A stretch of DNA of 64,000 bases from a virus (lineage: Duplodnaviria; Caudoviricetes): IMG/VR virus record IMGVR_UViG_3300042473_001546, positions 7,399-71,398 of that record; one strand, given 5' to 3'. Numbering within the stretch: position 1 is the first letter of the stretch; every line of letters starts with the position of its first letter. This document shows, in pieces, positions 3,804 to 64,000 of the stretch. The position numbers were made by a program, and so were the translations under genes. The notes under the pieces were generated by a model. That model was not told where the DNA came from, searched no databases, and saw nothing but the letters and a program-made list of their open reading frames with translations.

Positions 3804-3811
3804 TCATAGAC

Positions 3812-3839
3812 AAAAAAGCCCGCTTAACGCGGGCTTTTT
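3812..3839. terminator. Bidirectional intrinsic terminator
   Basis: AAAAAAGCCCGC-TTAAC-GCGGGCTTTTT between convergent genes. Confidence 0.85.
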
Positions 3840-3841
3840 GC

Positions 3842-3997
3842 TTATTTCTTTTGAGGCCAAATATCTTTGATATTGACCTTGCTCATTTCTGTTACCAAAT
3901 TCATATGAGCCTCATACATTTTTGCTGCTGTGTCCATATAAGTTGCGGCTACAGCAGCATACCAATTGGTAACGCTTCGTGCGATATCGTTGTTCAT
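3842..3997 (-). CDS. Small amphipathic helical protein
   Basis: MNNDIARS.., SD GGGGAG, TAAATA upstream. Confidence 0.55.
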   Translation of the reverse strand: MNNDIARSVTNWYAAVAATYMDTAAKMYEAHMNLVTEMSKVNIKDIWPQKK

Positions 3998-4060
3998 TGT
4001 TATTCTCCCCTTTGTGTCTAGTCTATTTATGTTGCGGTGCAACATCATAGATGTCAACCT

Positions 4061-4651
4061 TCACCAGCGAGCATTTTTTTCAAATCCAGCATCTTCCAAT
4101 TCTTTTTGGGCATCAAACATTGCACGTTTTCCTTGTCCTGCATATCTTCTTAAGATGTCTTTGACCTTCTCAGCTGCTCGATTTTCAATTGCATTGGTGT
4201 TACCATATGCAATGCCTATTCGGCAGGCATTCAACAACCGAAGAACCGGAAGAGTAGAGCTCCAGGTGAAAATTACAGCTTCTACACTAGCAGGAAACCC
4301 CTCTAGACTTTGTAGTCTAGGCATTAAGCTTATGTTGAACACTCCACCAACAGTGTCTGGCGCACCCCTCAAATCAGATAGCTTGTTTCGGTCTACCAAA
4401 CAGTCTCCTGTGACTTCACCAGGACAGCCATATAACGAACTCAAGTTGCTGTCTCGAACATTGAATGTACCCACAACCTTACCAAAGGCAAATGGCAAGC
4501 TGCCATTGGGAAATCTATATTGGCTTGGCCTTATATCAGAATACACATTCAGTCTGCCTTGACTATCAAAATCATATTTTTTGTCTTCAATTATTGAATA
4601 GGCAACAAAATAGGAATTCAACTCCTGTAAAATCTTCTCTTTGTCTACCAT
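4061..4651 (-). CDS. Variable LRR protein with conserved C-tail (array 1, last gene)
   Basis: LSSLYGCPGEVTGD-type 21-aa repeats; YAGQGKRAMFDAQKELEDAGFEKNARW. Confidence 0.85.
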   Translation of the reverse strand: MVDKEKILQELNSYFVAYSIIEDKKYDFDSQGRLNVYSDIRPSQYRFPNGSLPFAFGKVVGTFNVRDSNLSSLYGCPGEVTGDCLVDRNKLSDLRGAPDTVGGVFNISLMPRLQSLEGFPASVEAVIFTWSSTLPVLRLLNACRIGIAYGNTNAIENRAAEKVKDILRRYAGQGKRAMFDAQKELEDAGFEKNARW

Positions 4652-5199
4652 TTTGCGTTGCCTTCAAATCCTGCATCTTCCAAGTCTTTTTGACAATCAA
4701 ACATTGCTCGTTTGCCTTGACCTGCATATTTGTTCATTATTGCCATGACCCTAGGTTGGCCATACAGCACTACCTCACGGGCGTTTAGAGTTCTCAGCAA
4801 TGGCAGGGATGGCCCCCATTTCAAACTGACCCTTTTGCCTACCTTTTGTGGAAAGCCGTCAAGAGAAACAAGCGGGTTGCGGTTTACAAAAAAATTGCCA
4901 CCCACCTCTAAGGGAGCACCAATCAGTGTGGTGAGCTTGTTACCAGCCAACTCACAGTCGCCAGTTACAAGTTGGGGCATGTTGTGTAAGGTTTTAAGGC
5001 CTTTTTCTTCAGCAACAAAATCCCCCGTCACTGTGCCGAACTTGACTGGTATCTCAGCCAGTTCATCAAGCATGTAAACATTCCACTGCACATCTACTGT
5101 GCCATCATCACGTATTTGCATTTGTTTGGATAGGCGATATTGATCACCAGGGTCAAAGTATTTGCACCACACTCTCAAGATCTCTTCTTTGTCTACCAT
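4645..5199 (-). CDS. Variable LRR protein (array 1)
   Basis: MVDK start, LTTLIGAPLEVGGNF repeats, conserved tail. Confidence 0.85.
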   Translation of the reverse strand: MVDKEEILRVWCKYFDPGDQYRLSKQMQIRDDGTVDVQWNVYMLDELAEIPVKFGTVTGDFVAEEKGLKTLHNMPQLVTGDCELAGNKLTTLIGAPLEVGGNFFVNRNPLVSLDGFPQKVGKRVSLKWGPSLPLLRTLNAREVVLYGQPRVMAIMNKYAGQGKRAMFDCQKDLEDAGFEGNAKW

Positions 5200-5786
5200 C
5201 GAGCATTCCCTTCAAATCCAGCATCTTCCAATTCTTTTTGACAATCAAACATGCCCTTTTTGCCAAATCTGCGATATTTTCTCAAAATACTCAACACTTG
5301 TTTGGGGTGGGAGTCAGCTGGATCGCGCATTTGAAACCATTCCAGCTCGATCCATTTGCATGTTAGGAGTCGCAACATAGGCATATTTGGATACCAAGAT
5401 ACAACTACACTTTGGTCTGGAGGTAAACCTTCAAGACTCTTGAAGTTAATTCCAGAAATATTGAGTTGGCCAGAGATTTGTTGGGTCAATCCCACAAGAT
5501 TGGTCAGTGGATTGTCATCAATGCTCATGCTACCGTGCACAACTTCTGGGCTGCCTTCTAGGCTTGTCAATCCACAGTTGTTCATACCCACATTACCATG
5601 GATAGTCCCAAAATTCACTGGCCACATGCCGTCAGGCATGTGCAGGCCATTTCTTCTTATAACATTGCCAAGGATGTTAAGAGAACCGTTTTCTTTCAGA
5701 AATCTGTATCTGCCTCTCTGGATGATGTCTTCAGAATTTTCAAAATAGTGTTCAAAAATACGTAATATAGATTCTTCATCTACCAT
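5193..5786 (-). CDS. Variable LRR protein (array 1)
   Basis: LTSLEGSPEVVHGS repeats, conserved tail. Confidence 0.85.
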   Translation of the reverse strand: MVDEESILRIFEHYFENSEDIIQRGRYRFLKENGSLNILGNVIRRNGLHMPDGMWPVNFGTIHGNVGMNNCGLTSLEGSPEVVHGSMSIDDNPLTNLVGLTQQISGQLNISGINFKSLEGLPPDQSVVVSWYPNMPMLRLLTCKWIELEWFQMRDPADSHPKQVLSILRKYRRFGKKGMFDCQKELEDAGFEGNARW

Positions 5787-6538
5787 TTTGCGTTTCCTTC
5801 ATAGCCAGAGTCTTCCAGTTCTTTTTGGCAATCAAACAAAGCCCGTTTGCCTTGCCCTGCGTATTTCATAAGGATGTTTTTCACAGCTCTAGCATCTTGA
5901 TTCAAAGTAGGATACAATCCTATGTCATCTGCAACCAATGTTCGTAATAACGGGAGATTTTTGTGATACGGGCCCCAAAAACCCGCCATTTCTCGTGGCG
6001 CACCATCAAGGCTTGTTAATGGGGTATCTATGCAAGTGAAATAGCCTGAGACTTTGGTGGGAGCACCTTTGAGATTGGTGAGATTATTGATGTCACAGCG
6101 AAAATCACCATTGACACTATCAGGCCCACCTTCAAGAGAAGACAGTTGATTCTTATAGCAAAAAAAACTGCCGGGAGAGATGTTTGGTACCCCCTTCAAG
6201 CTATTCAGCTTGTTATGATTGACCGAAGTTACCCCGCCCACTGTTTTTGGAAAACCTTCAAGTGTCTCAAGTTCATTCTCACGAGCATCAAAATCACCCA
6301 TAACTTCGAAAGGACTGCCCAACAGACTAGTTAAGTTGTTTTTTGAGCAGAGGAAATCTCCTGTAACCAATTTGAAACGGCAAGGCAAAATTGTTGCAGA
6401 GAGCCGGAGACTCACGTTGCCATATGCTGATACTAGGCCTGCATCATCCACCTCTATTTTTCCTGAATGACTTGTCCCGGCATGAAAATCAAAGTTATAG
6501 TGAAATATTTTCAGGACACTTTCCCGTAGACTTACCAT
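5780..6538 (-). CDS. Variable LRR protein (array 1, about 6 repeats)
   Basis: 21-aa LxxLxGxPxxVxGxFxCxxN repeats, conserved tail. Confidence 0.85.
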   Translation of the reverse strand: MVSLRESVLKIFHYNFDFHAGTSHSGKIEVDDAGLVSAYGNVSLRLSATILPCRFKLVTGDFLCSKNNLTSLLGSPFEVMGDFDARENELETLEGFPKTVGGVTSVNHNKLNSLKGVPNISPGSFFCYKNQLSSLEGGPDSVNGDFRCDINNLTNLKGAPTKVSGYFTCIDTPLTSLDGAPREMAGFWGPYHKNLPLLRTLVADDIGLYPTLNQDARAVKNILMKYAGQGKRALFDCQKELEDSGYEGNAKW

Positions 6539-7107
6539 CTGGCATTGCCTTCATACCCTGCATCTTCCAGTTCTTTTTGGCAATCAAACAAAGCCCTTTT
6601 GCCTTGCCCTTCGTATTTTTTCATAATAGCAACAGGGGGTTTATGGTCTAAGCTCAAATTGGCAAACACAATTTGTGGTGCCACCAAGGCCCTCAACAAA
6701 GGCAACTGGGGATGGTAGGGAAGGTATAAGGTGTTTCCAATTTCAGAGGCAAGGCCGTCAAGGTTCTCCAACGGATTATTGCTAGCCTCGTAGGTCCCTC
6801 CTACTTTTTTTGGCCCACCAAGCAAGGTGGTCAATTTGTTGCCGCTGCAATAGAAATTTTGTCTAACCGTCAGTGGGCAACCTTCTAGAGAGGTTAAATT
6901 GCGGTTTTGTATTTGCATACTGAAATTCGCTGCTTCAAATTCCACCGGCAATTTTCCATCAGGCGGACTACGCCACAAGAAAACATTGTTCAAAACAGTG
7001 ATTTTGCCAGTGGTGGGATTGATATTGAGACTGCCTTTTGAGGTTACAAAGCCTGGACCATCAAAATACGTTCTGTAACTTTTCTCAATTTCTTTCACAT
7101 TTACCAT
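6532..7107 (-). CDS. Variable LRR protein (array 1, first gene)
   Basis: Start re-set to MVNVKE at 7107 (SD GAAGGA); conserved tail. Confidence 0.85.
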   Translation of the reverse strand: MVNVKEIEKSYRTYFDGPGFVTSKGSLNINPTTGKITVLNNVFLWRSPPDGKLPVEFEAANFSMQIQNRNLTSLEGCPLTVRQNFYCSGNKLTTLLGGPKKVGGTYEASNNPLENLDGLASEIGNTLYLPYHPQLPLLRALVAPQIVFANLSLDHKPPVAIMKKYEGQGKRALFDCQKELEDAGYEGNARW

Positions 7108-7166
7108 CTTGCATTCCTTCAAACTTATCAAGTTCCAGTTTTTTGACCATCAAATAAGACACGTTT
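7101..7166 (-). pseudogene. Decayed orphan copy of the conserved LRR-family tail
   Basis: AAACGTGTCTTATTTGATGGTCAAAAAACTGGAACTTGATAAGTTTGAAGGAATGCAAGATGGTAA reads KRVLFDGQK/LELDKFEG/ARW* with two indels. Confidence 0.75.
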
Positions 7167-7255
7167 TCATAGGCTTGCGTCATACAGATCTTCCAATGAG
7201 GTGCAATATTTAGGTTTGGGTTGACACATTTCAAGAACCTTGTAAGCTGCGCAGT

Positions 7256-13995: not shown

Positions 13996-14466
13996 ATGCG
14001 TAATACTCTTTCTCTTCAATCAACAAGTTTTGAAGACATGATTCGCGATTTCAATCGCATTGCAGTGGGGTTTGAGCCCACACTGCGCAATCTCAATTCA
14101 CTACGCCAAAACAGTGCAACTACTTTTCCTCCGTATGACTTGGAAAAGATTGGTGAGCATGAATATCGACTCAGCATGGCTGTTGCTGGTTACAGTGCCG
14201 CCGACATTGACATTGTTGAGCACGACGGTGTGCTGACAGTTGAAGGCAAAGTGTCAAATGACGCCAACCGGGTGTATCTACACAAGGGGATTGCAGGACG
14301 CAGCTTCAAGCGTGTGTTTTACATGGACCAGTATGTTCGTGTGCAACATTCTACACTTGAGAATGGAATCCTTGTGATTGACTTTGTTCAAGATGTGCCA
14401 GAGGCACTCAAGCCCAAAAAGATTACAATCAATTCAACACAGCCCAAGGCTATTGAATCAGAATAA
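13996..14466 (+). CDS. ibpA: Small heat-shock protein Hsp20
   Basis: FPPYD.EK....YR..MAVAGY, YLHKGIA.RSF.R.F, LENGIL.I, PEALKPKKI.I. Confidence 0.92.
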   Translation: MRNTLSLQSTSFEDMIRDFNRIAVGFEPTLRNLNSLRQNSATTFPPYDLEKIGEHEYRLSMAVAGYSAADIDIVEHDGVLTVEGKVSNDANRVYLHKGIAGRSFKRVFYMDQYVRVQHSTLENGILVIDFVQDVPEALKPKKITINSTQPKAIESE

Positions 14467-16875: not shown

Positions 16876-17202
16876 ATGAGTGCAACTCAAACTGAAATTG
16901 ATACCAAAACAACAACCAAAACCGAACTAAAGCCTCCCAGTCTCTATGATGTTATTTTTTTCAATGACAGCAAAACTCATTATGAGTTTGTTGTTTTGAT
17001 TTTGATGCATATCTTTGGCAAGAGTTATGAAACTGCTATGGAGCTAACCAACCAAATCCATGATAAGGGCAGAGAAGTAGTAGCCACATATTCATACGAA
17101 ATTGCCTCCACCAAAAGAGACGAAACCATATCTACTGCACGAACAAATGGCCATCCATTGCGTGTGGAAATTGAACCCAACAGCAATGGAGACGACATTT
17201 GA
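16876..17202 (+). CDS. clpS: ClpS N-degron adaptor
   Basis: PP.LY.VIFFNDSKTHYEFVV..L..IF, IH.KG, YEIA, HPLRV.IE. Confidence 0.92.
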   Translation: MSATQTEIDTKTTTKTELKPPSLYDVIFFNDSKTHYEFVVLILMHIFGKSYETAMELTNQIHDKGREVVATYSYEIASTKRDETISTARTNGHPLRVEIEPNSNGDDI

Positions 17203-54624: not shown

Positions 54625-56415
54625 ATGACCCAATCCCTCTCTGAAGTTGATGCTACACAAATTGAAACTTGGCAACTGTTGGTGCCGCACATCAAAAAAC
54701 CAATTCCCAGTTGTCCACGATACACTGAACGACTTCTGCAAGAAATAGAGCTCATTACAGAACAGAGATTTGCGCCGCATTTTTTGCGGGTCTTGGAAAT
54801 TTTGAATCTCACAAAGGATTTGCCACACATTACTCGAGGAAGTGCTGGCAGCTCACTGGTATGCTATCTTTTGGGAATTACTAATGTGGATCCTGTTGAG
54901 CACAATATTCCCTTAGCACGATTTATCAACCCCTTGCGTGATGATTTGCCTGACGTTGACATAGATTTCAGCGCCAAGTTTCACAAAGAAGTATTGAATC
55001 GGATCTACGCCCACTGGCCTGGCCGTGCTGCTCGCCTCAGCAACTATGTGAAATACCAACAAAAGAGTGCTGAGAAAGAGGCACTCAAGAGGGTATGTGG
55101 TATCAAAGGCAAGCGTGTTAAAAACAACAAGCCCATTGAGTTGGTTCCTGATCATCAAAAAGCCGAATGGAAAAAACTCACCAATAGGCTGATAGGCAAA
55201 AAGAAAAGTATTTCAAAACACCCTGGTGGTGTAGTGGTTTTTGAACAACCCCCAGCACCAAGTTTGGTGTTAAAAAAAGACAACCAAATCTTACTTGACA
55301 AATATGAGGTGGAAGACCTTGCACTTTTGAAGGTGGATGTGCTCAGCAACAGAGGGCTAAGTGTGCTGTGGGACTGTGACAAAAAGGGTGCATTTGACTA
55401 TCCATTGGATTGTGATCTCACATTTGACATGCTCAGCGGAGGCGACAGCATTGGGGTTGTGCAAGGCGAAAGTCCTGTTATGCGACGCACCCTCAAGGGT
55501 TTGAGGCCCAGTTGTGTGAGCGATCTCACACTAGCTACAGCACTTATTCGGCCAGCAGCACTTACTGGGCGTCAAAAAGGTGTGTTTTTTCGAGAGTGGA
55601 TTGGACACAACGGGAGGCCCGGAAAACTGCAACACAAAGGTGGTTTGATCTTTGATGAAGATGCTATTGAACTCATCTGCGATATTTTGAAATGCAACCC
55701 TTTTGAAGCTGATATGTATCGTAGAGGCTTTGTGAAGAAAAACGAAGAAATGATGTTTGATTTCATTGGGAAAATTGGTGAGAATCCGCAGAAAACTGAG
55801 ATTTTGAAGCTGTTGTCAAACATGGATGGATTTGGTTTATGCAAGGCACACAGCATCAACCTAGCTCATCTCATCTACGCACAAGCTTATGAGAAACAGC
55901 ATCACCCCAAGAGATTTTGGCTAGCTGTTCTTCAAAACGCTTGCAGCATGTATCGTCCTTGGGTGCACATTGAGGGTGCTAAAAAAGTTGGTTGGAAAAT
56001 TGAAGGCAAGGGTCGACCTTGGAAGGTTGATGGTGATACTCTCTACAATGATCTGTGGACAGTGCCACTTTTTGAAAGCCACATTGATCAAATGGCCAAA
56101 ATGGGATTTTGGACACACAGCAGTTGGATGCCTGGCTGCTATTACCAAGAGTTTGGTGACACTGTTACACTTTGTGGGCTGGTAGCTGCACACAGATGCT
56201 ATCACAAGGGCAGTGGTGAGTTTGTGACATTTTGTACGCTGGGCGTGGGGCCTGGTCAATTTGCTGAGGTTGTGTTGCCTGGTATGGTGGGTTTGAAAAA
56301 CAAATCTGTGGTTGACTTGGTGGGAAAGCTGAACATTATCAATGGTGTTGCCAGCATAACTGCACAAAAATTCAACACATATACCATTTGGGAACATGCC
56401 AAAAATTTAGGTTGA
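54625..56415 (+). CDS. dnaE: DNA polymerase III alpha-like catalytic subunit lacking PHP domain
   Basis: RGSAGSSLVCYLLGITNVDP, RFINP.R.D.PDVDID, HPGGVV, KVDVL, ALIRP, GLCKAHS. Confidence 0.88.
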   Translation: MTQSLSEVDATQIETWQLLVPHIKKPIPSCPRYTERLLQEIELITEQRFAPHFLRVLEILNLTKDLPHITRGSAGSSLVCYLLGITNVDPVEHNIPLARFINPLRDDLPDVDIDFSAKFHKEVLNRIYAHWPGRAARLSNYVKYQQKSAEKEALKRVCGIKGKRVKNNKPIELVPDHQKAEWKKLTNRLIGKKKSISKHPGGVVVFEQPPAPSLVLKKDNQILLDKYEVEDLALLKVDVLSNRGLSVLWDCDKKGAFDYPLDCDLTFDMLSGGDSIGVVQGESPVMRRTLKGLRPSCVSDLTLATALIRPAALTGRQKGVFFREWIGHNGRPGKLQHKGGLIFDEDAIELICDILKCNPFEADMYRRGFVKKNEEMMFDFIGKIGENPQKTEILKLLSNMDGFGLCKAHSINLAHLIYAQAYEKQHHPKRFWLAVLQNACSMYRPWVHIEGAKKVGWKIEGKGRPWKVDGDTLYNDLWTVPLFESHIDQMAKMGFWTHSSWMPGCYYQEFGDTVTLCGLVAAHRCYHKGSGEFVTFCTLGVGPGQFAEVVLPGMVGLKNKSVVDLVGKLNIINGVASITAQKFNTYTIWEHAKNLG

Positions 56416-56466
56416 CTGGTTCTTCAACTCTGCTATAACTACGCGATGAAGCAGAGGAGAGCAATA

Positions 56467-56619
56467 GTGAACAAATCTCACAAGCTGGTGGCTACAGCCC
56501 CTCGCAAGCCTCGCCGAGCAATGGAGCTGTTCTCTGACGCGAGGTTTCAGCCGCGTGTAGTGAAATCCAAGCGTGCTTACACCCGCCGGCCCCGCAACAA
56601 CCGTAACCTGGACCAGTAG
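56467..56619 (+). CDS. ArfA-like small basic protein (not in ORF track)
   Basis: MNKSHKLVATAPRKPRRAMELFSDARFQPRVVKSKRAYTRRPRNNRNLDQ; SD GAGGAG; promoter at 56412-56439. Confidence 0.6.
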   Translation: MNKSHKLVATAPRKPRRAMELFSDARFQPRVVKSKRAYTRRPRNNRNLDQ

Positions 56620-56630
56620 GAACAACTACC

Positions 56631-57062
56631 ATGAGTGAGTGGCAGGATTTTGATGTTCACTACAACGATGAAGAGCAGGAAGGAGAGGGCCGATGCCCAC
56701 GTGTGGCAATGTTCCCTCATGTGCGTCCCAAGGGCATTGTAGGTGGCAATCGACAGGTCACCAACCTTGAACGTATCTGGATCACTTTCGACTACCCCTT
56801 GAGCCAGCCCTCCACACGCCAGTTTTTCAATGATGGTGGCTGGACCCTTTATGACTTCTACCGGGCAGTATATGAGGGCTATGTGAAGATCTATGCGGAG
56901 GAAGAAGGTGCTGCTGGTGATCCTGGCTTGATCCCAGGCATGCTGAACCGAGCTCGCAGCGAAGGACCGCATGGCATTTGGGGGCATGGCATCGAGGATC
57001 TGTTCCTTGAAGGTTACCAGGAAGTGGCACCTGGAGAGTTCAAGCTGGGCATGGGCAGCTGA
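56631..57062 (+). CDS. Hypothetical protein
   Basis: FDYPL, Y.KIY.EE, G.HGIWGH.I.DL.LEG. Confidence 0.7.
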   Translation: MSEWQDFDVHYNDEEQEGEGRCPRVAMFPHVRPKGIVGGNRQVTNLERIWITFDYPLSQPSTRQFFNDGGWTLYDFYRAVYEGYVKIYAEEEGAAGDPGLIPGMLNRARSEGPHGIWGHGIEDLFLEGYQEVAPGEFKLGMGS

Positions 57063-57124
57063 CTCTGATTTGGCATAGGCAATTTTGCTCCATATAATCT
57101 TGGGAGCAAACAAAGGAGTTGCCT

Positions 57125-57685
57125 ATGCCGCCACTAGCTGGAAAAGTGTTGCCCAGTCTTGAAGATCACAATGTGTATCTTTTCATGGAGTCATTTGAGG
57201 ACAAAACTGTTCGACCCGTTATTGAGTTCATTCTACGAAAAAATCTCTTGCCCAACAAAGAGCGTCCCCCGCATCTCACAATCATTATTTGCAGCCCAGG
57301 TGGAGAGATGCCGTCTGCCTTTGCACTGATTGATGTAATCAAAGGCAGCACTATTCCAATTCACACTGTTGGCCTCGGCCAAATTGCCAGTTGCGGCCTT
57401 CTCCTATTTATGAGTGGAGCCAAAGGGCATCGAGTCATTACCCCTAGCACCAGCATCATGAGTCATCAATACTCTTGGGGGCAAGGTGGGAAACATCACG
57501 AACTCTTGTCAACAGTCAAGGAGTTTGAACTCACTGGCAAACGAATGATCGAATTGTATCGGCATTGTACTGGTCTGGATGAGAAAACAATTCGCAAATT
57601 ACTGCTGCCGGCCAGCGACGTTTGGCTCACTCCTGAAGAGGCAGTCAATTACGGTATTGCTGACGAGATCAAAGAGACTTTTTGA
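57125..57685 (+). CDS. clpP: ClpP protease
   Basis: I.SPGG, TVGLGQIASCG (Ser), IMSHQ (His), DVWLTPEEA..YG..D (Asp). Confidence 0.9.
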   Translation: MPPLAGKVLPSLEDHNVYLFMESFEDKTVRPVIEFILRKNLLPNKERPPHLTIIICSPGGEMPSAFALIDVIKGSTIPIHTVGLGQIASCGLLLFMSGAKGHRVITPSTSIMSHQYSWGQGGKHHELLSTVKEFELTGKRMIELYRHCTGLDEKTIRKLLLPASDVWLTPEEAVNYGIADEIKETF

Positions 57686-58003
57686 TTATTTTTCTGGATT
57701 GGGCAACCGGGCCACACGGTCTAAATCATTGCCCATTCTCTGCAAGTTGAGATTTTTCAAACGGCTCATCAAGGTCAAGGCGATGGGATCTTTCACACTG
57801 TCTGAGCTGGCTTTGATGTAGTCGTCCAAGCTGTTTAAGAGATCAGCTACAGTTTTGATTGCAGGGTAATCTGGTGGTAGTTTGAACTGAGCTGCCTCTC
57901 TACCATAGTTGACTTGTCCTTGCTGAATCATCCGATCCACTTGGGTCTCGCCTTCATAGGCTTCAAGAACAACCTTGCGCCAAAGTTGGATATCTTCTTT
58001 CAT
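57686..58003 (-). CDS. Hypothetical late protein
   Basis: MKEDIQLWRK..LEA; ATG 5 nt after TAAATA. Confidence 0.6.
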   Translation of the reverse strand: MKEDIQLWRKVVLEAYEGETQVDRMIQQGQVNYGREAAQFKLPPDYPAIKTVADLLNSLDDYIKASSDSVKDPIALTLMSRLKNLNLQRMGNDLDRVARLPNPEK

Positions 58004-58011
58004 ATATCTAT

Positions 58012-58707
58012 TTACCAACGGGCGTTCTTGTCAAAACCAGCGTCCTCTAGATCCTTTTGGCAATCAAACATAGCACTTTTGCCTTGGCCGGCATATTTGG
58101 CCAATATGTCTTGCACAGTAGAGGCAGGATCTTGGTAATAGTTGGCAAACGTTACCATATTTGCAATCAGTGTTCGCAACAGTGGCAGCTCTGGATCATA
58201 GGAGAGCCTCAACTCTCCTGGTATAACTTTTGGTAAGCCTTCCAAACTCTTCAATGGGTTGTCGGCACAGAAAAAGTCATCCCCTACAGTTTCGGGCGCC
58301 CCTATGAGGTTGTGTAACCCGTTGTCACTACAATAAAATCCCCCGCCCACAGAGTTTGGTGCCCCCGCAAGACTAGTGAGATTACAATGGTTACACCAAT
58401 AGTTGCCGCCTACTGTTTGTGGTCCACCACGCAATCCTTTTTCTCCAAGTGGATTGCTGTCTACGTCAAATTCACGATGCACAATTTGTGGGCTGCCCTT
58501 CAAACTCCACAGGTTTTTGTCAACGGCTTTGAAATTGTAGACTGTTCCAAAACGCACAGGTAGTTCTTGAAAGGCTGGTGCAGGGTTGATCATTTTCACA
58601 CCATCTGCACTGTTGAACAACCCCTCCTTGTCAATGTTGTCAACTGAGATGTTGATACCTATGAAATACATCTTAAATCGCAGTAGTAACTTATCTTTAT
58701 CTACCAT
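58012..58707 (-). CDS. Variable LRR protein (array 2, last gene)
   Basis: 21-aa repeats; tail ...GFDKNARW. Confidence 0.85.
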   Translation of the reverse strand: MVDKDKLLLRFKMYFIGINISVDNIDKEGLFNSADGVKMINPAPAFQELPVRFGTVYNFKAVDKNLWSLKGSPQIVHREFDVDSNPLGEKGLRGGPQTVGGNYWCNHCNLTSLAGAPNSVGGGFYCSDNGLHNLIGAPETVGDDFFCADNPLKSLEGLPKVIPGELRLSYDPELPLLRTLIANMVTFANYYQDPASTVQDILAKYAGQGKSAMFDCQKDLEDAGFDKNARW

Positions 58708-59276
58708 CTGGCATTCCCTTCAAATCCAGCATCTTCCAAGTCTTTTTGGCAGTCAAACATTGCTCGTTTGCCTTGCCCTGCATATTTGACTAAGATTTTT
58801 TCCAATTCCACTTGATCTGGATTGGGCCAAATTTTCTGGGCTACCAGTGTGCGCAACAAGGGAAGAGTGGGTGTATAATCAAACTCTACACCGAGCCCCC
58901 CAATATGTGATGCTAGCCCATCTAAATTTTCCAATGGATTCTTAGTCACAAGATAATAGGTTCCCACATAGTCAGGTCCGCCAGTTAAGGTGGTTAAGTT
59001 GTTGTTTTTGACAGAGAATGCCTTTCCAACCCAATATGGGGAACCTTCGAGCGTTGTGAGTCCAAGATCAACCGCTTGAAAGTTACCAGTGATTTTACCA
59101 AACACCAGAGGAAGTGTTTTGTGGCTTCTCCTCCCAAACAGTCGATGCAAGTCAATGTCACCAGAGATGTCAACTCTATTTTCGCTATCTAGTGAGATGG
59201 AGTTAAGGGCAAGTGTTGGGGCATAATCACGGAGTATTTGTTTAGCTTCTTGCAGACTGCTTGCTTTATCTACCAT
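58701..59276 (-). CDS. Variable LRR protein (array 2)
   Basis: MVDK, repeats, conserved tail. Confidence 0.85.
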   Translation of the reverse strand: MVDKASSLQEAKQILRDYAPTLALNSISLDSENRVDISGDIDLHRLFGRRSHKTLPLVFGKITGNFQAVDLGLTTLEGSPYWVGKAFSVKNNNLTTLTGGPDYVGTYYLVTKNPLENLDGLASHIGGLGVEFDYTPTLPLLRTLVAQKIWPNPDQVELEKILVKYAGQGKRAMFDCQKDLEDAGFEGNARW

Positions 59277-59965
59277 CTTGCATTCTCCTCAAAGCCAGCG
59301 TCCTCTAGATCCTTTTGGCAATCAAACAGGGCTCGTTTTCCTTGGCCGGTATATTTGTTGAGTATGAGTTCCACGTCCTTCATCTTCTCTCCATTATCGG
59401 GATTGATAAGCTGTATTTCGTTCACAGTCAAAAGGCCCAACAAGGGTAAATGTGGTTTCCAAGTGATTACCACAGTGTTTACATGTGCAGGAGTATTACG
59501 AAAATGTTCAAAAGGGTTTTCAGTGGCCCAAATATAATTTGTGGGTGGACAAGACTCTAGACTGGTCAACAGATTTTTATTACACACTAACTCATATAAG
59601 ACAGGTGGACAATATTTCAAGCTCACTAACTGATTGTTGCTGCAATCAAAATTTTGAGTTTCTTTGGGTGCGTATTGTAGGGAAGTTAACTGATTATCTT
59701 CACAATGGAAGTCTCCTTGGACAACAAGTGGACAGCCTTCTAAGCTCTTCAATCCCATTCCCGAAACAATGAAATCATAATGAGCTATCTTGAATTTGAT
59801 AGGTAGTTTTCCAGTGGCAAATGACCGAACAGCCCCAGCAGAGGAATATAATTCCACCCAACCATGGTCATCAACATTGTAATCGTCGTTATCAAGTGGT
59901 CGTTCAGAATAAGTGGTCTTGAAATGCCTTGTGAGTATTTTGGCTGTGTTGTATTTGTCTACCAT
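59270..59965 (-). CDS. Variable LRR protein (array 2)
   Basis: Start re-set to MVDKYNT at 59965; includes shorter repeat variants. Confidence 0.85.
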   Translation of the reverse strand: MVDKYNTAKILTRHFKTTYSERPLDNDDYNVDDHGWVELYSSAGAVRSFATGKLPIKFKIAHYDFIVSGMGLKSLEGCPLVVQGDFHCEDNQLTSLQYAPKETQNFDCSNNQLVSLKYCPPVLYELVCNKNLLTSLESCPPTNYIWATENPFEHFRNTPAHVNTVVITWKPHLPLLGLLTVNEIQLINPDNGEKMKDVELILNKYTGQGKRALFDCQKDLEDAGFEENARW

Positions 59966-60531
59966 CTGGCATTTCCCCCAAACCCTGCATCTTCCAGTTC
60001 TTTTTGGCAATCGAACATTGCTCGTTTTCCCTGTCCCTGGTAACGAAACATTATGTTGTTCACCGCATCACGTGCTGCTTCTATCTCAAGAGTTGGCTCA
60101 CTTGGCAGTCGCAAAACTAGTCCCAATTTGGCCACCAGTGTTCTAAGTAATGGCAGTTTAGGATCATAGGTGAGTTCTATCCAACCCCCAATCTCTGTGC
60201 TCAAGCCCTCGAGACTCTTCAATGGATTTCTTTCCAAACTCAAGTTACCCCCAACCTTACTGGGCATGCCCGCCAAGCTTTGGATTTGATTGTTGTGGGC
60301 CCAAAGATTGCCGCCTACCTCAGCGGGCGAATTCTGGAAGCTCTTGAGATTGCTGTTAGCCAAATACAAATGTCCAGCTATTGAGCTAAATTTGAAAGGC
60401 AAGTGAGATATGGCCCGGCCAGCATTTACATTACCGTAAGCTACAATTGTTCCATCATCGCAAATACGGTATTCGCCATCCATTGATAGGAATCTCTCAA
60501 GCTTTTCTTTTATTTCTCGTTTGTTTACCAT
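59959..60531 (-). CDS. Variable LRR protein (array 2)
   Basis: MVNK, repeats, conserved tail. Confidence 0.85.
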   Translation of the reverse strand: MVNKREIKEKLERFLSMDGEYRICDDGTIVAYGNVNAGRAISHLPFKFSSIAGHLYLANSNLKSFQNSPAEVGGNLWAHNNQIQSLAGMPSKVGGNLSLERNPLKSLEGLSTEIGGWIELTYDPKLPLLRTLVAKLGLVLRLPSEPTLEIEAARDAVNNIMFRYQGQGKRAMFDCQKELEDAGFGGNARW

Positions 60532-61178
60532 CGGGCATTTCCTTCAAAACCCGCATCCTCTAGATCTTTTTGGCAGTCAAACAGGGCTTGTTTTCCTTTG
60601 CCAGCATAATTATTCAGGATGTTTTCAACTGCCTGAGATTCATCAGGTAAATCGTCACTGTACAACCATACTTTTTGTGCTACCAAGAGTCTCAGCAGTC
60701 CCATATTTGGCATGTAAGTAAGTTTCACTGTTCTTCCCACACTGCTGGGAAATCCTTCAAGACTTTCCAAATAGGGCATGTCATATATTTGAACGTCGCG
60801 GTCCACAGTGTTTGGTCCTCCTTTAAGATTTGTGAGGGAGGTGCCTTTTATCACTAAATCTCTACTCACATAATCAAATGTGCCGCCCAGATCCTTTATA
60901 TTAGGACAATCAAAGATCTCTAGATCTCTACCAATATAACTGGGCGCACCCTCAAAGGTTCTCACAAGTGATCTGTCTAAGCGAACATCACCACCTACAG
61001 ATTTGATCTCCCACGCAAATTCAAGAACATCTCGCCTGATGTGAAGGCTTCCAGCTATCCCACCTTTTGCTTTCACACTCACGGTGTGTTCGTTATGAAA
61101 TTCCAGTTCGCCATTCCAGGAAAAATCTTCTGTAAATGTTTCAGTAAGTTCTTGGATTTTTCTTGGGTCAGTTACCAT
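60525..61178 (-). CDS. Variable LRR protein (array 2)
   Basis: MVTD, repeats, conserved tail. Confidence 0.85.
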   Translation of the reverse strand: MVTDPRKIQELTETFTEDFSWNGELEFHNEHTVSVKAKGGIAGSLHIRRDVLEFAWEIKSVGGDVRLDRSLVRTFEGAPSYIGRDLEIFDCPNIKDLGGTFDYVSRDLVIKGTSLTNLKGGPNTVDRDVQIYDMPYLESLEGFPSSVGRTVKLTYMPNMGLLRLLVAQKVWLYSDDLPDESQAVENILNNYAGKGKQALFDCQKDLEDAGFEGNARW

Positions 61179-61765
61179 CTTGCATTTCCTTCAAATCCCT
61201 CATCTTCCAATTCTTTTTGGCATTCAAACAAGGCACGCTTGCCTTGACCGTGGTATTTGTTTAAAATTTTTTCTACTTGTGCTGCATTGTCTTGATCTTC
61301 CGTAGTCATTTGATTTGCCCACAATGCTACGCCTTGTTTAGCCAATAGCGTGCGCAACAATGGTAGATTGGGTGTCCAGTCGAGGCTTACAAATTCTCCC
61401 AATTCAGTGGGGAATCCATCCAATGTTTTCAACTGTGGGTTACTACGCAGACGCAAATAACCCCCAATTTTTTGAGTACAACCAACAAGACTTGTTAACT
61501 TATTACCAGTTAAGTTCAACAACCCAGTAATCTCAGTTGGCATTCCCTTAAGAGATGTCAACTCACAGTAGGATAGGCGAAAGTCGCCATCAATGCGCCC
61601 AAATTGCACAGGCAGCTCACCATTTGGAAAATCCTCTCCTCGTATTTGTGCTTCGACACTGCTGGCGACGTTGACTACACCATTGATAGTGACTTCAACA
61701 CTTTCACTGTCATTTGCCAAAAACCACTTGTTGAATATTTTGTGAATCTGTTCTCTATCTACCAT
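61172..61765 (-). CDS. Variable LRR protein (array 2)
   Basis: MVDR, repeats, conserved tail. Confidence 0.85.
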   Translation of the reverse strand: MVDREQIHKIFNKWFLANDSESVEVTINGVVNVASSVEAQIRGEDFPNGELPVQFGRIDGDFRLSYCELTSLKGMPTEITGLLNLTGNKLTSLVGCTQKIGGYLRLRSNPQLKTLDGFPTELGEFVSLDWTPNLPLLRTLLAKQGVALWANQMTTEDQDNAAQVEKILNKYHGQGKRALFECQKELEDEGFEGNARW

Positions 61766-62556
61766 CTTGCATTCTCCGCAAATCCTGCATCTTCCAAGTC
61801 CTTTTGGCAGTCAAATAGGGCTCGTTTGCCTTGCCCTCCGTAGCGATTGAGAATTACTTCAGCTGTTTTGTGCTTCCCATCTTTGGGATACAGTTGAATC
61901 TCTTTTGCGAGCAAACAACGAAGCAGTGGCAAAGTGGAGCTATAGGAGAGATGTAAGATTCCAGGTATGGTTGGCAAGCCTTCAAGTGTGGTGAGCTGGT
62001 TGTTGTGGCAGTTGAAACTACCACCAATTGAAGTGGGCGCACCTTCAAGTGTGGTGAGCTGGTTGTTGGAGCAATCGTAATGACGACCAACTGAAGTGGG
62101 CCCACCTTCAAGTGTGGTGAGCTGGTTGTTATAGCACAATAAACTACCACCAACTGAAGTGGGCCCACCTTCAAGTGTGGTGAGCTGGTTGTTGTGGCAC
62201 AAGAAATCACCACCAACTGAAGTGGGCCCACCTTCAAGTGTGGTGAGCTGGTTGTTGTGGCACCAGAAACCACCACCAACTGAAGTGGGTGCACCTTGGA
62301 GTGTAGTGAGCTGGTTGTTGTAGCACAAGAAACCACCACCAACTGAAATGGGCCCACCTTCAAGTGTGGTGAGCTGGTTGTTGCCGCACTTGAAACTACC
62401 ACCAACCTTATCAAAAGCAACAGGCAATCTCTTCAACTTCTTTTTAGGAGTTACCATACCTGTACAACTAACCAATCCCTTATCATCAATGGTTATTGAA
62501 CCAGTTGTTTTGAAATATTTTTCCAACAAAGCCATTACTTCTTTTTTGTCTACCAT
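61759..62556 (-). CDS. LRR protein with 7 homogeneous 21-aa repeats
   Basis: (VGGxFxCxxNQLTTLEGxPTS)x7. Confidence 0.9.
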   Translation of the reverse strand: MVDKKEVMALLEKYFKTTGSITIDDKGLVSCTGMVTPKKKLKRLPVAFDKVGGSFKCGNNQLTTLEGGPISVGGGFLCYNNQLTTLQGAPTSVGGGFWCHNNQLTTLEGGPTSVGGDFLCHNNQLTTLEGGPTSVGGSLLCYNNQLTTLEGGPTSVGRHYDCSNNQLTTLEGAPTSIGGSFNCHNNQLTTLEGLPTIPGILHLSYSSTLPLLRCLLAKEIQLYPKDGKHKTAEVILNRYGGQGKRALFDCQKDLEDAGFAENARW

Positions 62557-63473
62557 CTTGCATTCTCCTCAAAGCCAGCGTCCTCTAGATCTTTTTGGCA
62601 ATCAAACATTGCTCGTTTGCCTTGCCCTCCGTAGCGATTGAGAATTACTTCAGCTGTTTTGTGCTTTCCATGCAGAGGATACAGTTGAATCTCTTTTGCC
62701 AACAAGCAACGAAGCAGTGGCAAGGTGGGGCTGTAGGAGAGATGTAAGGTTCCAGGTACAGTTGGCAAGCCTTCAAGTGTGGTGAGCTGCTGGTTGCTGC
62801 ACGAGAAATTACCACCAACTGAAGTGGGTGCACCTTCAAGTGTGGTGAGCTGGTTGTTGTCGCACCAGAAACTACCACCAACTGAAGTGGGTGCACCTTC
62901 AAGTGTGGTGAGCTGGTTGATGTGGCAGAAGAAACCACCACCAACTGAAGTGGGTGCACCTTCAAGTGTGGTGAGCTGGTTGTTGTCGCACCAGAAACTA
63001 CCACCAACTGAAGTGGGCCCACCTTCAAGTGTAGTGAGCTGGTTGAGGCTGCACAAGAAATCACCACCAACTGAAGTGGGCCCACCTTCAAGTGTGGTGA
63101 GCTGGTTGTTGGAGCAATCGTAATGACGACCAACTGAAGTGGGCCCACCTTCAAGTGTGGTGAGCTGGTTGAGGCTGCATAAGAAACCACCACCAACTGA
63201 AGTGGGTGCACCTTGGAGTGTGGTGAGCTGGTTGATGTGGCAGAAGAAACTACCACCAACTGAAGTGGGTGCACCTTCAAGTGTGGTGAGCTGGTTGTTG
63301 TCGCACTTGAAATCACCACCAACCTTATCAAAAGCAACAGGCAATCTCTTCAACTTCTTTTTAGGAGTTACCATACCTGTACAACTAACCAATCCCTTAT
63401 CGTCAATGGTTATTGAACCAGTTGTTTTGAAATTAGCTTTCAACAAAGCCATTACTTCTTTTTTGTCTACCAT
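62550..63473 (-). CDS. LRR protein with 9 homogeneous 21-aa repeats
   Basis: Same caps as the previous gene, 42 aa longer. Confidence 0.9.
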   Translation of the reverse strand: MVDKKEVMALLKANFKTTGSITIDDKGLVSCTGMVTPKKKLKRLPVAFDKVGGDFKCDNNQLTTLEGAPTSVGGSFFCHINQLTTLQGAPTSVGGGFLCSLNQLTTLEGGPTSVGRHYDCSNNQLTTLEGGPTSVGGDFLCSLNQLTTLEGGPTSVGGSFWCDNNQLTTLEGAPTSVGGGFFCHINQLTTLEGAPTSVGGSFWCDNNQLTTLEGAPTSVGGNFSCSNQQLTTLEGLPTVPGTLHLSYSPTLPLLRCLLAKEIQLYPLHGKHKTAEVILNRYGGQGKRAMFDCQKDLEDAGFEENARW

Positions 63474-64000
63474 CTGGCATTTCCTTCAAATCCAGCATCT
63501 TCTAAGTCTTTTTGGCATTCAAACAAGTATCGTATGCCGTTTCCTGCGTATCGATTGAGAATTTTTTCAGCTGTTTTGTGCTTCCCATTCTCAGGATACA
63601 GTTGAATCTCTTTTGCGAGCAAACAACGAAGCAGTGGCAAAGTGGAGCTATAGGAGAGATGTAAGATTCCAGGTATGGTTGGCATTCCTTCAAGTGTGGT
63701 GAGCTGGTTGTTGTGGCAGTCGAAACTACCACCAATTGAAGTGGGCGCACCTTCAAGTGTAGTGAGCTGGTTGTTGGAGCAATCGTAATGACGACCAACT
63801 GAAGTGGGCCCACCTTCAAGTGTGGTGAGCTGGTTGTTATAGCACAATAAACTACCACCAACTGAAATGGGCCCACCTTCAAGTGTGGTGAGCTGGTTGT
63901 TGTGGCACAAGAAATCACCACCAACTGAAGTGGGTGCACCTTCAAGTGTGGTGAGCTGCTGGTCGCTGCACGAGAAACTACCACCAACTGAAGTGGGTGC
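63467..64000 (-). CDS. LRR protein, 5' part outside window (at least 5 repeats)
   Basis: Frame open to window edge. Confidence 0.88.
   Translation of the reverse strand, partial: APTSVGGSFSCSDQQLTTLEGAPTSVGGDFLCHNNQLTTLEGGPISVGGSLLCYNNQLTTLEGGPTSVGRHYDCSNNQLTTLEGAPTSIGGSFDCHNNQLTTLEGMPTIPGILHLSYSSTLPLLRCLLAKEIQLYPENGKHKTAEKILNRYAGNGIRYLFECQKDLEDAGFEGNARW

What the first reader, a model, noticed from the sequence alone, without database searches (positions are those of the whole stretch)
58701..63473. The conserved tail also encodes the next gene's SD and ATG; only terminal genes lack this
Seen: all 12 internal junctions (4645, 5193, 5780, 6532, 58701, 59270, 59959, 60525, 61172, 61759, 62550, 63467) have a 7-nt ATGGTAR overlap in which (A/C)GA or AAA-TGG-TAR also reads ATG-GTA. 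The FEG/FEE/FGG/FAE codons supply GAAGG/GAGGAG/GGGGGA/GGAG about 8 nt upstream. The last genes keep the NARW peptide but lack both signals (4061: GAA AAA AAT GCT CGC TGG TGA; 58012: GAC AAG AAC GCC CGT TGG TAA). Inference: the tail is under dual protein and nucleotide selection, so any cassette recombined in through it is automatically translated.
Basis: partly seen in the sequence, partly recalled or inferred. Interest (0 to 1): 0.78.

Follow-up and report, generated by a model that had tools for sequence, protein, structure and literature searches.

The report
Stop-start overlap couples phage paralogs
In a large lake-water phage, each gene in two tandem arrays of repeat proteins ends in a conserved tail whose last codons also spell the ribosome-binding site and start codon of the next gene: a known coupling trick, used here in an unusually regular, inheritable form.

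Summary
All 12 internal junctions in the window carry ATGGTAR, where (R/K)-W-stop of one gene is also Met-Val of the next. A GGAG/AGGA-like core lies about 8 nt upstream. Both terminal genes in the window read as quoted.

I collected 92 distinct junctions from this contig and 35 related phage or metagenome loci.
- Internal junctions: 79 of 79 keep a usable start (ATG 71, GTG 7, TTG 1).
- Terminal junctions: 8 of 13 keep one (ATG 6, TTG 2, CTG 5); Fisher p=2.6e-5, and 7e-5 at cluster level.
- The Arg codon before Trp ends in A in 64 of 68 internal tails, 5 of 10 terminal tails, and 43.5% of Arg codons elsewhere in these genes.

So the start codon is under nucleotide-level selection that relaxes at array ends.

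The SD part is weaker. A core is present in 66 of 79 internal and 9 of 13 terminal junctions (p=0.25), although it exceeds synonymous resampling.

"Only terminal genes lack this" is not a rule: 6 of 13 terminal tails keep both signals, one of them on this contig.

The mechanism is ordinary translational coupling at an uncommon -7 spacing. Recombination through the tail is plausible but not shown.

The parts
58012..64000 (-). Array B. Nine tandem family genes: 63467-64000 (5' end cut by the contig end), 62550-63473, 61759-62556, 61172-61765, 60525-61178, 59959-60531, 59270-59965, 58701-59276 and 58012-58707 (terminal).
   Evidence: ORFs. All match the family profile. Start codons are set by the ATGGTAR overlaps.
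4061..7107 (-). Array A. Five tandem family genes: 6532-7107, 5780-6538, 5193-5786, 4645-5199 and 4061-4651 (terminal).
58701..58707 (-). Example of the 7-nt overlap ATGGTAG: Trp plus stop of gene 58701-59276, and Met-Val of gene 58012-58707. The same overlap lies at 59270-59276, 59959-59965, 60525-60531, 61172-61178, 61759-61765, 62550-62556, 63467-63473, 4645-4651, 5193-5199, 5780-5786 and 6532-6538.
58716..58721 (-). Example of the SD-like core (GAAGGG). It is encoded by the Glu-Gly codons of the tail, 8 nt before the ATG. The equivalent hexamers at the other 11 junctions are GAAGG(A/G/C), GAGGAG, GCGGAG and GGGGGA.
   Evidence: Enrichment over synonymous resampling.
58708..58773 (-). Example of the conserved tail-coding block, the last ~22 codons (GKRAMFDCQKDLEDAGFEGNARW). 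It is present at the 3' end of every family gene. The 12 junction regions of the window are a median 80% identical to one another.
7101..7175 (-). Fossil tail in front of the first gene of array A. In the tail frame it reads KRVLFDGQKTGT**V*RNARW*, so it no longer codes. It still holds GAAGGA, a 7-nt spacer and ATGGTAA, which is the start of gene 6532-7107.
   Evidence: The orthologous gene in locus L017 is internal and is preceded by an intact family gene.
4061..4081 (-). Terminal tail of array A: GAA AAA AAT GCT CGC TGG TGA. It has no SD core, and CTG stands in place of ATG.
   Evidence: The orthologous terminal tails in L017 and L034 also read CTG.
58012..58032 (-). Terminal tail of array B: GAC AAG AAC GCC CGT TGG TAA. 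It has no SD core. TTG stands in place of ATG, in frame with the next ORF.
57686..58018 (-). Non-family gene after array B. It has 105 aa from the ATG at 58003, or 110 aa from the TTG at 58018 that overlaps the stop of the terminal gene. In L013 and L015 a 6-codon ORF bridges the same two genes and ends in an ATGA overlap.
   Evidence: No family match in Pfam or PHROGs.
3842..3997 (-). Small gene (51 aa) after array A with its own GGAGAA. It is preceded by TTGACA (4052-4057) and CATAAATA (4024-4031) and followed by a hairpin terminator (3813-3839).
   Evidence: The layout is conserved in L017 and L034.

Best explanation
The two arrays are operon-like runs of paralogous genes. Each encodes a protein of about 190-310 aa with three parts: a short N-terminal domain, a leucine-rich-repeat-like solenoid of variable length, and a conserved helical C-terminal cap.

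The last seven codons of the cap do double duty.
- Two poorly conserved residues (mostly Glu-Gly or Glu-Glu) spell a GGAG/AGGA-type Shine-Dalgarno core.
- The last base of the Arg/Lys codon plus the TG of the final Trp codon spell the start codon of the next gene.
- The rest of the Trp codon plus the stop codon force that gene's second codon to be GTA or GTG (Val).

A ribosome that finishes one paralog therefore sits directly on the start site of the next. This is a stop/start overlap of 7 nt, in the same phase as the common ATGA overlap. The next paralog is translated by coupling. That means re-initiation by the terminating ribosome, fresh initiation at an SD that the passing ribosome keeps unfolded, or both.

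Because the signal lies inside the unit that duplicates, every new copy inherits a working start site.

Shown: the anatomy; the nucleotide-level constraint on the start codon and its relaxation at array ends; the excess of SD-like sequence over what codon usage predicts; and the use of SD motifs by the phage's other genes.

Inferred: that the genes share one transcript, and that translation of a gene depends on translation of the gene before it.
For: (1) All 12 junctions in the window have the overlap.

(2) I found 79 distinct internal junctions from 23 sources (this contig plus related loci). The overlapping triplet is ATG in 71, GTG in 7, TTG in 1 and anything else in 0. In 13 terminal junctions it is ATG 6, TTG 2, CTG 5. 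Fisher p=2.6e-5 for a usable start and 7e-4 for ATG. With genes clustered at 55% identity, 0 of 45 internal clusters hold an unusable start against 5 of 10 terminal clusters (p=7e-5).

(3) Arg codons in the bodies of these genes end in A 43.5% of the time (n=639). The tail Arg codon ends in A in 64 of 68 internal tails and 5 of 10 terminal tails (p=0.0012). Other synonymous sites of the tail vary freely.

(4) The two residues that carry the SD are the least conserved of the tail, with 17 different dipeptides. Even so, codon -5 starts with G in 76 of 78 junctions, and codon -6 ends in a purine in 71 of 78.

(5) Synonymous resampling of codons -8 to -3 gives a mean anti-SD binding energy of -3.92 kcal/mol (sd 0.18), against -6.12 observed. 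None of 500 resamplings reached the observed value. Resampling gives 40.2 junctions with a core against 69 of 79 observed.

(6) Other genes of the window use SD motifs: 40 of 70 ORFs have a core, against 25.5% of 5000 random windows.

(7) Of 222 database relatives of at least 150 aa, 179 start MV and 7 start VV. In all 179 MV proteins the third residue has a codon that can begin with a purine, as the overlap demands. 234 of 239 relatives end in Trp.

(8) First genes of arrays that follow a non-family gene start MQA, MLE or MAL, and overlap that gene by TAATG or TGATG.

(9) The fossil tail at 7101-7175 has lost its reading frame but keeps GAAGGA and ATGGTAA.

(10) In L006 (4 contigs) and L033, a 47-codon ORF consists only of the head and the tail of a family gene. 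It links the preceding gene (TAATG) to the first full family gene (ATGGTAA or GTGGTAG).

(11) Literature, passages read: SD motifs inside the 3' end of the upstream gene are typical of overlapping gene pairs and usually raise re-initiation (PMC6728339). Coupling is most efficient between -4 and +3 nt and declines with longer overlap (PMC12548453).
Against: - No expression data exist. No RNA run holding this DNA was listed, so co-transcription and coupling are untested.
- By motif count the SD contrast between internal and terminal tails is not significant: 66 of 79 against 9 of 13, p=0.25. Thirteen internal junctions have only GAGAA-like purine runs.
- Six of 13 terminal tails keep both signals, so relaxation is partial or slow.
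- The junctions are related by descent. The binomial and resampling figures therefore overstate independence; the cluster-level test is the safer one.
- The 13 terminal junctions fall into about five genomic contexts.
- A -7 overlap is expected to couple less well than -4 (review passage).
- No conserved RNA structure that would mask the start site was found. This removes one classical route to strict coupling.
Confidence: 0.75

Rival explanations
1. Independent initiation only. Each paralog is translated from its own SD and ATG by ribosomes that bind afresh. The overlap is just compact packing, and nothing is handed over from the upstream gene.
For: The first gene of array A must start this way, because the tail in front of it is untranslatable yet keeps SD and ATG. 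No masking RNA structure was found: the consensus fold is -2.44 kcal/mol with 0 covarying pairs. The phage's other genes use SD motifs.
Against: Thirteen of 79 internal junctions lack a canonical 4-nt core yet keep the overlap. Seven use GTG and one TTG, weak starts that gain most from re-initiation. The head-plus-tail mini-ORFs of L006 and L033, and the 6-codon bridges of L013 and L015, keep an unbroken chain of overlapping stops and starts. Published tests find most overlapping pairs coupled (PMC6728339 passages).
Confidence: 0.25
2. The conserved tail is above all a recombination handle. Gene units are swapped, inserted and deleted by crossovers within it, and the built-in SD and ATG exist so that any unit arriving this way is expressed.
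For: Gene order is fluid. 23 gene clusters are seen in two or more different arrays. Over all clusters with a known neighbour, 13 have more than one kind of upstream neighbour and 10 more than one kind of downstream neighbour. The junction is intact every time. The terminal gene of L013 has the body of the orthologue of the window's internal gene 58701-59276 but a terminal-type tail, FDRNAIW. Homology of the fossil tail and of the mini-ORFs to the family begins at about the same place, GKR(A/V)LF.
Against: Unit-wise gain and loss is expected of any tandem array. Informative sites in the L013 tail point both ways. The longest exact match between the tails of the window's paralogs has a median of 14 nt (range 8-42) at 80% identity, which is short for homologous recombination. 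No integrase or recombinase was seen among 70 window ORFs scanned against Pfam. Synonymous sites of the tail are not homogenised.
Confidence: 0.3
3. No translational role. The junction is identical everywhere only because the genes are recent duplicates, and because the C-terminal peptide (NARW) and N-terminal peptide (MVDK) are each conserved for protein function.
For: The tail is a well-folded part of the protein: the AlphaFold model has pLDDT 94 over the last ten residues. The final Trp is kept in 13 of 13 terminal genes.
Against: Paralogs are only 34-46% identical in protein to the reference paralog, and synonymous sites in the tail vary, so the copies are old. The one synonymous site that makes the ATG is fixed internally and free terminally. 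Val-2 is absent where no tail precedes. The residues that carry the SD vary in amino acid but not in purine content.
Confidence: 0.05
4. Programmed -1 frameshifting joins successive paralogs into polyproteins.
For: The downstream frame is -1 relative to the upstream frame (read directly from the sequence).
Against: No X XXY YYZ slippery site precedes the stop; the sequence is GC(N) AGA/CGA/AAA TGG TAR. In the downstream frame a TGA, made by TTT GAA, closes the frame five codons before the ATG (read). In all 150 listed relatives the tail match ends at the last residue, and none is longer than 290 aa. None of the 5 hits among longer proteins (336-2000 aa) holds two units. This last point is weak, because gene callers would split such forms.
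Confidence: 0.02

Closest known systems
Translationally coupled overlapping gene pairs (ATGA at -4 and TAATG/TGATG at -1) with an SD inside the upstream gene, read as termination-reinitiation (Huber et al. 2019, PMC6728339; review by Brown & Wade 2025, PMC12548453; passages read)
   Same: Co-directional genes, a stop and a start that overlap, the same reading phase as ATGA, and an SD core inside the 3' end of the upstream ORF about 8 nt before the start.
   Different: The overlap is 7 nt, with a whole Trp codon between start and stop. The review passage names -4, -1 and -8 as the enriched spacings, not -7. The overlap is a fixed feature of a whole protein family rather than of one gene pair. 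It is copied with each duplication and forces both the last residue (Trp) and the second residue (Val) of the proteins. Dependence on upstream translation has not been tested here.
Short ORFs that pass ribosomes on to promoterless gene cassettes in class 1 integrons (the ORF in attI). Recalled from memory; no paper was opened.
   Same: A conserved upstream coding stretch supplies translation to whatever gene unit follows. The 47-codon head-plus-tail ORF of L006 and L033 looks like such a relay.
   Different: There is no integrase, no attC-like folded site and no evidence of site-specific recombination. The units are paralogs of one family, not unrelated cassettes.
Expanded tandem families of repeat proteins in large viruses and bacteria (leucine-rich-repeat and ankyrin families of giant viruses, poxvirus gene 'accordions', Listeria internalin clusters). 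Recalled from memory.
   Same: Tandem paralogs with a variable repeat domain and a conserved end, whose number and order change quickly between relatives.
   Different: Those families are not known to me to share a fixed stop/start overlap. Sequence relatives of this family were found only in phage and metagenome sequence. No relative was found in 185,579 species genomes (0 of 267 candidate stretches), and no Pfam or PHROGs family matches the tail.

Membership tests
Translationally coupled overlapping gene pair | Co-directional neighbouring ORFs whose stop and start codons overlap or nearly touch | tested here: met
   12 of 12 junctions in the window, and 79 of 79 distinct internal junctions overall, have a 7-nt overlap with a usable start.
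Translationally coupled overlapping gene pair | SD motif inside the 3' end of the upstream ORF at a working distance | tested here: met
   AGGA, GGAG, GAGG or AAGG lies 5-12 nt before the start in 66 of 79 internal junctions. This exceeds all 500 synonymous resamplings. It is not universal.
Translationally coupled overlapping gene pair | Both genes on one mRNA | not testable with these tools
   No RNA run holding the stretch was listed. The consensus scan found 7 promoter-like sites in 3700-7400 against 6.8 expected, which decides nothing.
Translationally coupled overlapping gene pair | Translation of the downstream gene depends on translation of the upstream gene | not testable with these tools
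   Needs a reporter with a premature stop codon in the upstream gene.
Leucine-rich repeat proteins | Tandem 20-30-residue repeats with the LxxLxLxxN pattern that form a curved solenoid | tested here: inconclusive
   Pfam LRR_4 was reached by 1 of 4 members scanned (30.1 bits, cut-off 27). The AlphaFold model (pLDDT 95.6) is a beta-strand solenoid with a helical cap. The best PDB matches are LRR proteins but with E of 0.6 or worse. 63-nt repeat units were found.
Programmed -1 ribosomal frameshift site | Slippery heptamer X XXY YYZ before the stop of the 0 frame | tested here: not met
   The tail sequences hold none.
Integron-like cassette array | Site-specific recombinase next to the array, and folded recombination sites between cassettes | tested here: not met
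   No integrase or recombinase family among 70 window ORFs scanned. No conserved structure at the junctions.

The most novel reading that the evidence does not exclude
The last ~22 codons plus the 7-nt overlap form a heritable hand-off module. It turns a fast-changing array of target-binding repeat proteins into a single ribosome relay. Ribosomes enter once, in some phages through a 47-codon ORF made only of a gene's head and tail. They are then passed from paralog to paralog, and in some phages on to the next, unrelated gene through a 6-codon bridge. Units could then be gained, lost or shuffled without ever evolving a new start site. A nonsense mutation in any unit would silence everything downstream, which would purge pseudogenes from the array.
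Probability: 0.3. Interest if true: 0.65.

Novelty: new variant of a known kind. Interest (0 to 1): 0.45.

Why it matters
The case gives a clean natural experiment on dual coding. The same synonymous site is fixed where a downstream paralog needs it and drifts to background codon usage where none follows.

It also shows how a multigene family can carry its translation start site inside the duplicating unit. This may help explain how large phages expand arrays of variable binding proteins so easily.

For annotation there are two practical points. The conserved Met-Val start and Trp end of this family are partly artefacts of the overlap. Gene callers that pick upstream TTG starts (as at 60010 and 7131) are probably wrong.

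The principle itself, an SD inside the upstream gene plus a stop/start overlap, is textbook. The interest is therefore moderate.

Tried and rejected
- Conserved RNA structure at the junction: the consensus fold of the 12 window junctions is -2.44 kcal/mol with 0 covarying pairs. Not pursued.
- Expression: no RNA holder was listed.
- Contigs of four lake-water DNA runs were laid on 57600-61800 at 85% likeness. Depth peaks over every tail, and the 'joints' run between tails. Both come from short contigs of paralogs or other phages, as the tool itself warns, so they are no evidence of deletions.
- blastn of 54625-57685 against the phage record collection: no match.
- PHROGs: no family for 2 of 3 family members scanned. 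The repeat-rich member hit phrog_21719 and phrog_7816, both of unknown function.
- PDB fold search: nothing better than E=0.6.
- BFVD fold search: 3 hits at E of 2.4e-4 or better, all unnamed A0A8D4G... entries.
- ESM Atlas: only 'hypothetical protein' clusters, viral.
- Motif TGCAYYGCAAC, seen after two kinds of array end: 5 matches in the window against 9.7 expected, so it is not a general phage motif here.
- My first clustering of junction genes merged nearly everything (coverage rule too loose). It was replaced.
- The spacing table assigned 12 junctions to an AGGA 17 nt upstream. It was replaced by the stricter count.
- L013 hybrid tail: the informative sites are mixed, so recombination and independent decay cannot be told apart.
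- Earlier findings of this scan were not open.
- Literature: three searches listed no paper on this family or on a family-wide stop/start overlap in phage paralog arrays. Only listings and abstracts were seen. Supplements of the coupling papers, which hold the spacing tables, could not be seen and may list -7 overlaps.
- One find call on PMC10666635 failed on term format and was not repeated. That paper was seen only as a listing and abstract.

Full report
WHAT THE SEQUENCE IS

The window is bases 7399-71398 of a 71398-base virus contig, and its right end is the contig end. The genes in between are those of a very large phage:
- DnaK (C-terminal end only);
- ClpX, ClpP and ClpS;
- IF3 and Hsp20;
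- a CCA-adding or poly(A) polymerase and dUTPase;
- a tail-fibre-like protein with an Mtd_N domain;
- part of a DNA polymerase III alpha subunit.

Relatives of the family studied here lie on IMG/VR contigs of up to 309756 and 328603 bases. DNA nearly identical to the window is held by 20 listed lake-water metagenome runs.

THE GENE FAMILY

Two runs of paralogous genes lie on the minus strand: array A (4061-7107, five genes) and array B (58012 to the contig end, nine genes, the last one cut). Two more family genes lie on the plus strand at contig 1-1136, outside the window.

The proteins are 34-46% identical to the reference paralog. They share an N-terminal MVDK-like start, a variable number of ~21-residue repeats, and a conserved end: LPLLR...YAGQGKRAMFDCQKDLEDAGFEGNARW.

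An AlphaFold model of gene 58701-59276 is confident (pLDDT 95.6). It shows a beta solenoid capped by C-terminal helices. The best PDB matches are leucine-rich-repeat proteins, but none is significant (E of 0.6 or worse). Pfam LRR_4 was reached by 1 of 4 members scanned.

All relatives found are unnamed phage or metagenome proteins:
- 104 by word search;
- 626 cluster representatives at E of 0.001 or better with a profile of the tail alone, of which 105 at 1e-10 or better;
- viral 'hypothetical protein' clusters in the ESM Atlas.

None was found in one genome for each of 185,579 prokaryote species (0 of 267 candidate stretches). What the proteins do is unknown. Their shape suggests variable binding modules on a common cap.

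CHECK OF THE OBSERVATION

ATGGTA(A/G) stands at each of the 12 named places. In every case the upstream gene ends (AGA/CGA/AAA) TGG TA(G/A). The next gene starts one base earlier: ATG GTA followed by a codon that begins with the last base of the stop. The hexamer 8 nt upstream is GAAGG(A/G/C), GAGGAG, GCGGAG or GGGGGA. The two terminal tails read as quoted. The description is accurate.

IS THE START CODON UNDER SELECTION OF ITS OWN?

I gathered every family gene with a complete tail from the contig and from 35 related loci (12 from viral contigs; 23 from metagenome contigs). I collapsed identical 81-nt junctions. A junction counted as internal if the ORF opened by the overlapping triplet matched the family profile. 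It counted as 'cut' if the contig ended inside a family-like N-terminus. Otherwise it counted as terminal.

This gave 74 internal, 5 cut and 13 terminal distinct junctions. Internal and cut junctions come from 23 sources and terminal ones from 11.

| Class | n | ATG | GTG | TTG | CTG |
|---|---|---|---|---|---|
| Internal + cut | 79 | 71 | 7 | 1 | 0 |
| Terminal | 13 | 6 | 0 | 2 | 5 |

Fisher p=2.6e-5 for a usable start and 7e-4 for ATG.

The junctions are related by descent, so I repeated the count on clusters of the genes that carry them. At 55% identity, 0 of 45 internal clusters hold an unusable start, against 5 of 10 terminal clusters (p=7e-5). The result was similar at 62% and 70%.

The synonymous site tells the same story. 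Arg codons elsewhere in these genes end in A 43.5% of the time (n=639). The tail Arg codon ends in A in 64 of 68 internal junctions and in 5 of 10 terminal ones (p=0.0012). The other third positions of the tail vary freely. So the base that makes the ATG is held where a paralog follows, and sits at background level where none does.

THE PROTEIN ENDS ARE PARTLY BY-PRODUCTS OF THE OVERLAP

Among 222 database relatives of at least 150 aa, 179 start MV and 7 start VV. In all 179 the third residue is one whose codon can begin with a purine (D, N, T, K, S, I, R, E, M, A), as the last base of TAG, TAA or TGA requires. 234 of 239 relatives end in Trp.

First genes of arrays that follow a non-family gene start MQA, MLE or MAL instead. 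They overlap that gene by TAATG or TGATG.

THE SD PART

The two residues that carry the core are the least conserved of the tail, with 17 different dipeptides. Yet codon -5 begins with G in 76 of 78 junctions and codon -6 ends in a purine in 71 of 78.

Resampling synonymous codons at positions -8 to -3 from the family's own codon usage gives a mean anti-SD binding energy of -3.92 kcal/mol, against -6.12 observed. None of 500 resamplings reached the observed value. It gives 40.2 junctions with a core against 69 of 79 observed. Relatedness of the sequences inflates this test.

The phage's other genes use SD motifs: 40 of 70 ORFs have a core, against 25.5% of random windows.

The internal-terminal contrast is weak, however. 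A strict core at 5-12 nt is present in 66 of 79 internal and 9 of 13 terminal tails (p=0.25). Binding energy differs with p=0.007. Thirteen internal junctions have only GAGAA-like runs. The SD therefore helps but is not obligatory, which agrees with published tests on overlapping pairs (PMC6728339, passages).

Six of 13 terminal tails keep ATG plus a core. One is the terminal gene at contig 1133 of this same contig, where the retained ATG opens a 12-codon ORF.

The terminal junctions fall into about five genomic contexts:
- After array A there is a conserved TTGACA...CATAAATA element, a GGAGAA, a 51-codon gene (3842-3997) and a terminator (3813-3839). All three orthologous tails (window, L017, L034) read CTG.
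- After the contig-start type of array end, two tails read ATG and two read CTG.
- After array B comes a conserved non-family gene. In L015 and L013 a 6-codon ORF begins at the overlapping ATG or TTG and ends in an ATGA overlap with that gene. In the window the TTG is in frame with that gene. The 'terminal' junction at 58012 may therefore still pass ribosomes on.

RELICS THAT BEAR ON FUNCTION

In front of the first gene of array A lies a decayed tail (7101-7175). It has stops and a frameshift, so it cannot be translated, yet it keeps GAAGGA, a 7-nt spacer and ATGGTAA. The orthologous gene in L017 is internal, and the window lacks the three family genes that precede it there.

In L006 (four contigs) and L033, a 47-codon ORF consists only of the first ~14 residues and the last ~22 residues of a family gene. 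It overlaps the preceding gene by TAATG and the next family gene by ATGGTAA or GTGGTAG. That it stays open in two diverged sequences hints at a relay function. The chance of 47 random codons staying open is about 0.1 by my arithmetic, so this is only a hint.

MECHANISM

The arrangement is a stop/start overlap in the same phase as ATGA, one codon longer. The review passages I read name -4, -1 and -8 as the enriched spacings. They say that coupling is best between -4 and +3 nt and falls as overlap grows (PMC12548453). So -7 is an uncommon but workable spacing.

I found no conserved RNA structure around the junction. I found no slippery site and no fused two-unit proteins.

I therefore read the tail as a translation hand-off. 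The mix of re-initiation and fresh initiation is undecided. Nothing here shows that the genes share an mRNA or that translation is dependent.

THE RECOMBINATION IDEA

Array composition changes by whole units between related phages. For example, genes I numbered 15 and 8 are adjacent in L017 but separated by two genes in the window. Likewise 8-27-11 stands against 8-11, and 18-22 against 18-46-22. Overall, 13 clusters have more than one kind of upstream neighbour and 10 more than one kind of downstream neighbour; 23 clusters are seen in two or more arrays.

This fits unit-wise exchange that the built-in start site would tolerate. It is also what any tandem array does. Exact identity between tails is short (median 14 nt). 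The one candidate hybrid (L013) is ambiguous. I rate this reading at about 0.3.

VERDICT

- dual coding of the start codon is well supported;
- the SD is moderately supported;
- 'only terminal genes lack it' is not a rule;
- the cassette idea remains open.

The thing is a family-wide, inherited version of ordinary translational coupling in an uncharacterised repeat-protein family of large freshwater phages.

Noticed in passing
window 61979-62406, 62770-63323, 63687-63997: 63-nt tandem repeats (6.8, 8.8 and 4.9 copies, 84-87% matches) encode the NNQLTTLEG.PTSVGG.F.C repeat units of the three longest paralogs. The contig ends inside the third of them, so the repeats probably broke the assembly.
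   Followed up: partly
contig bases 1-1136 (outside the window, plus strand): Two further family genes lie in inverted orientation to array B and are 87-93% identical in DNA to parts of it. The terminal one keeps SD and ATGGTAA, followed by a 12-codon ORF.
   Followed up: partly
window 3813-4057: After array A comes a conserved layout: TTGACA (4052-4057), CATAAATA (4024-4031), GGAGAA, a 51-codon gene (3842-3997) and a strong two-way hairpin terminator (3813-3839). The same layout follows the arrays of L017 and L034.
   Followed up: partly
L006 5865-6008 and L033 166-309 (approx.): A 47-codon ORF is made of the head and the tail of a family gene, with the repeat body deleted in frame. It overlaps the gene before it (TAATG) and the gene after it (ATGGTAA or GTGGTAG).
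   Followed up: yes
L013 866-890 and L015 13886-13910 (approx.): A 6-codon ORF starts at the overlapping TTG or ATG of the terminal family gene and ends in an ATGA overlap with the next, unrelated gene (MK(H)DIQ... / MNSDIQ...).
   Followed up: partly
window 12211-12825, 10980-12230, 16876-17202, 57119-57685, 1-387, 13996-14466: The phage carries its own IF3, ClpX, ClpS, ClpP, the end of a DnaK, and an Hsp20. ClpP lies just past array B, separated from it by one small gene. A review passage notes that one in-vitro coupling assay depended on IF3. No link to the arrays was tested.
   Followed up: no
window 54625-56415: A 596-aa ORF matches only the NTPase and finger domains of DNA polymerase III alpha, so the polymerase may be split or truncated here.
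   Followed up: no
window 20496-22031: A 511-aa protein has an Mtd_N (major tropism determinant N-terminal) domain and a pectate-lyase-like beta helix. It is probably a tail fibre or depolymerase.
   Followed up: no
window, many gene starts (e.g. 10980, 17729, 23707, 28522): ATGA or GTGA 4-nt stop/start overlaps are frequent among the phage's other genes (listing), so coupling by overlap is a general habit of this genome.
   Followed up: no
BFVD entries A0A8D4GLZ7, A0A8D4GM21, A0A8D4GM51 and others with neighbouring accession numbers: The best viral structural matches (E from 1.1e-5 to 2.4e-4) are several unnamed proteins of 190-290 aa with neighbouring accession numbers. This suggests a similar paralog family in another sequenced virus.
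   Followed up: no
window 60010 and 7131: The longest-ORF rule puts TTG starts 45 and 24 nt upstream of the ATGGTAR starts of genes 59270-59965 and 6532-7107. These upstream starts lie inside the preceding tail or the fossil tail and are probably not used.
   Followed up: partly
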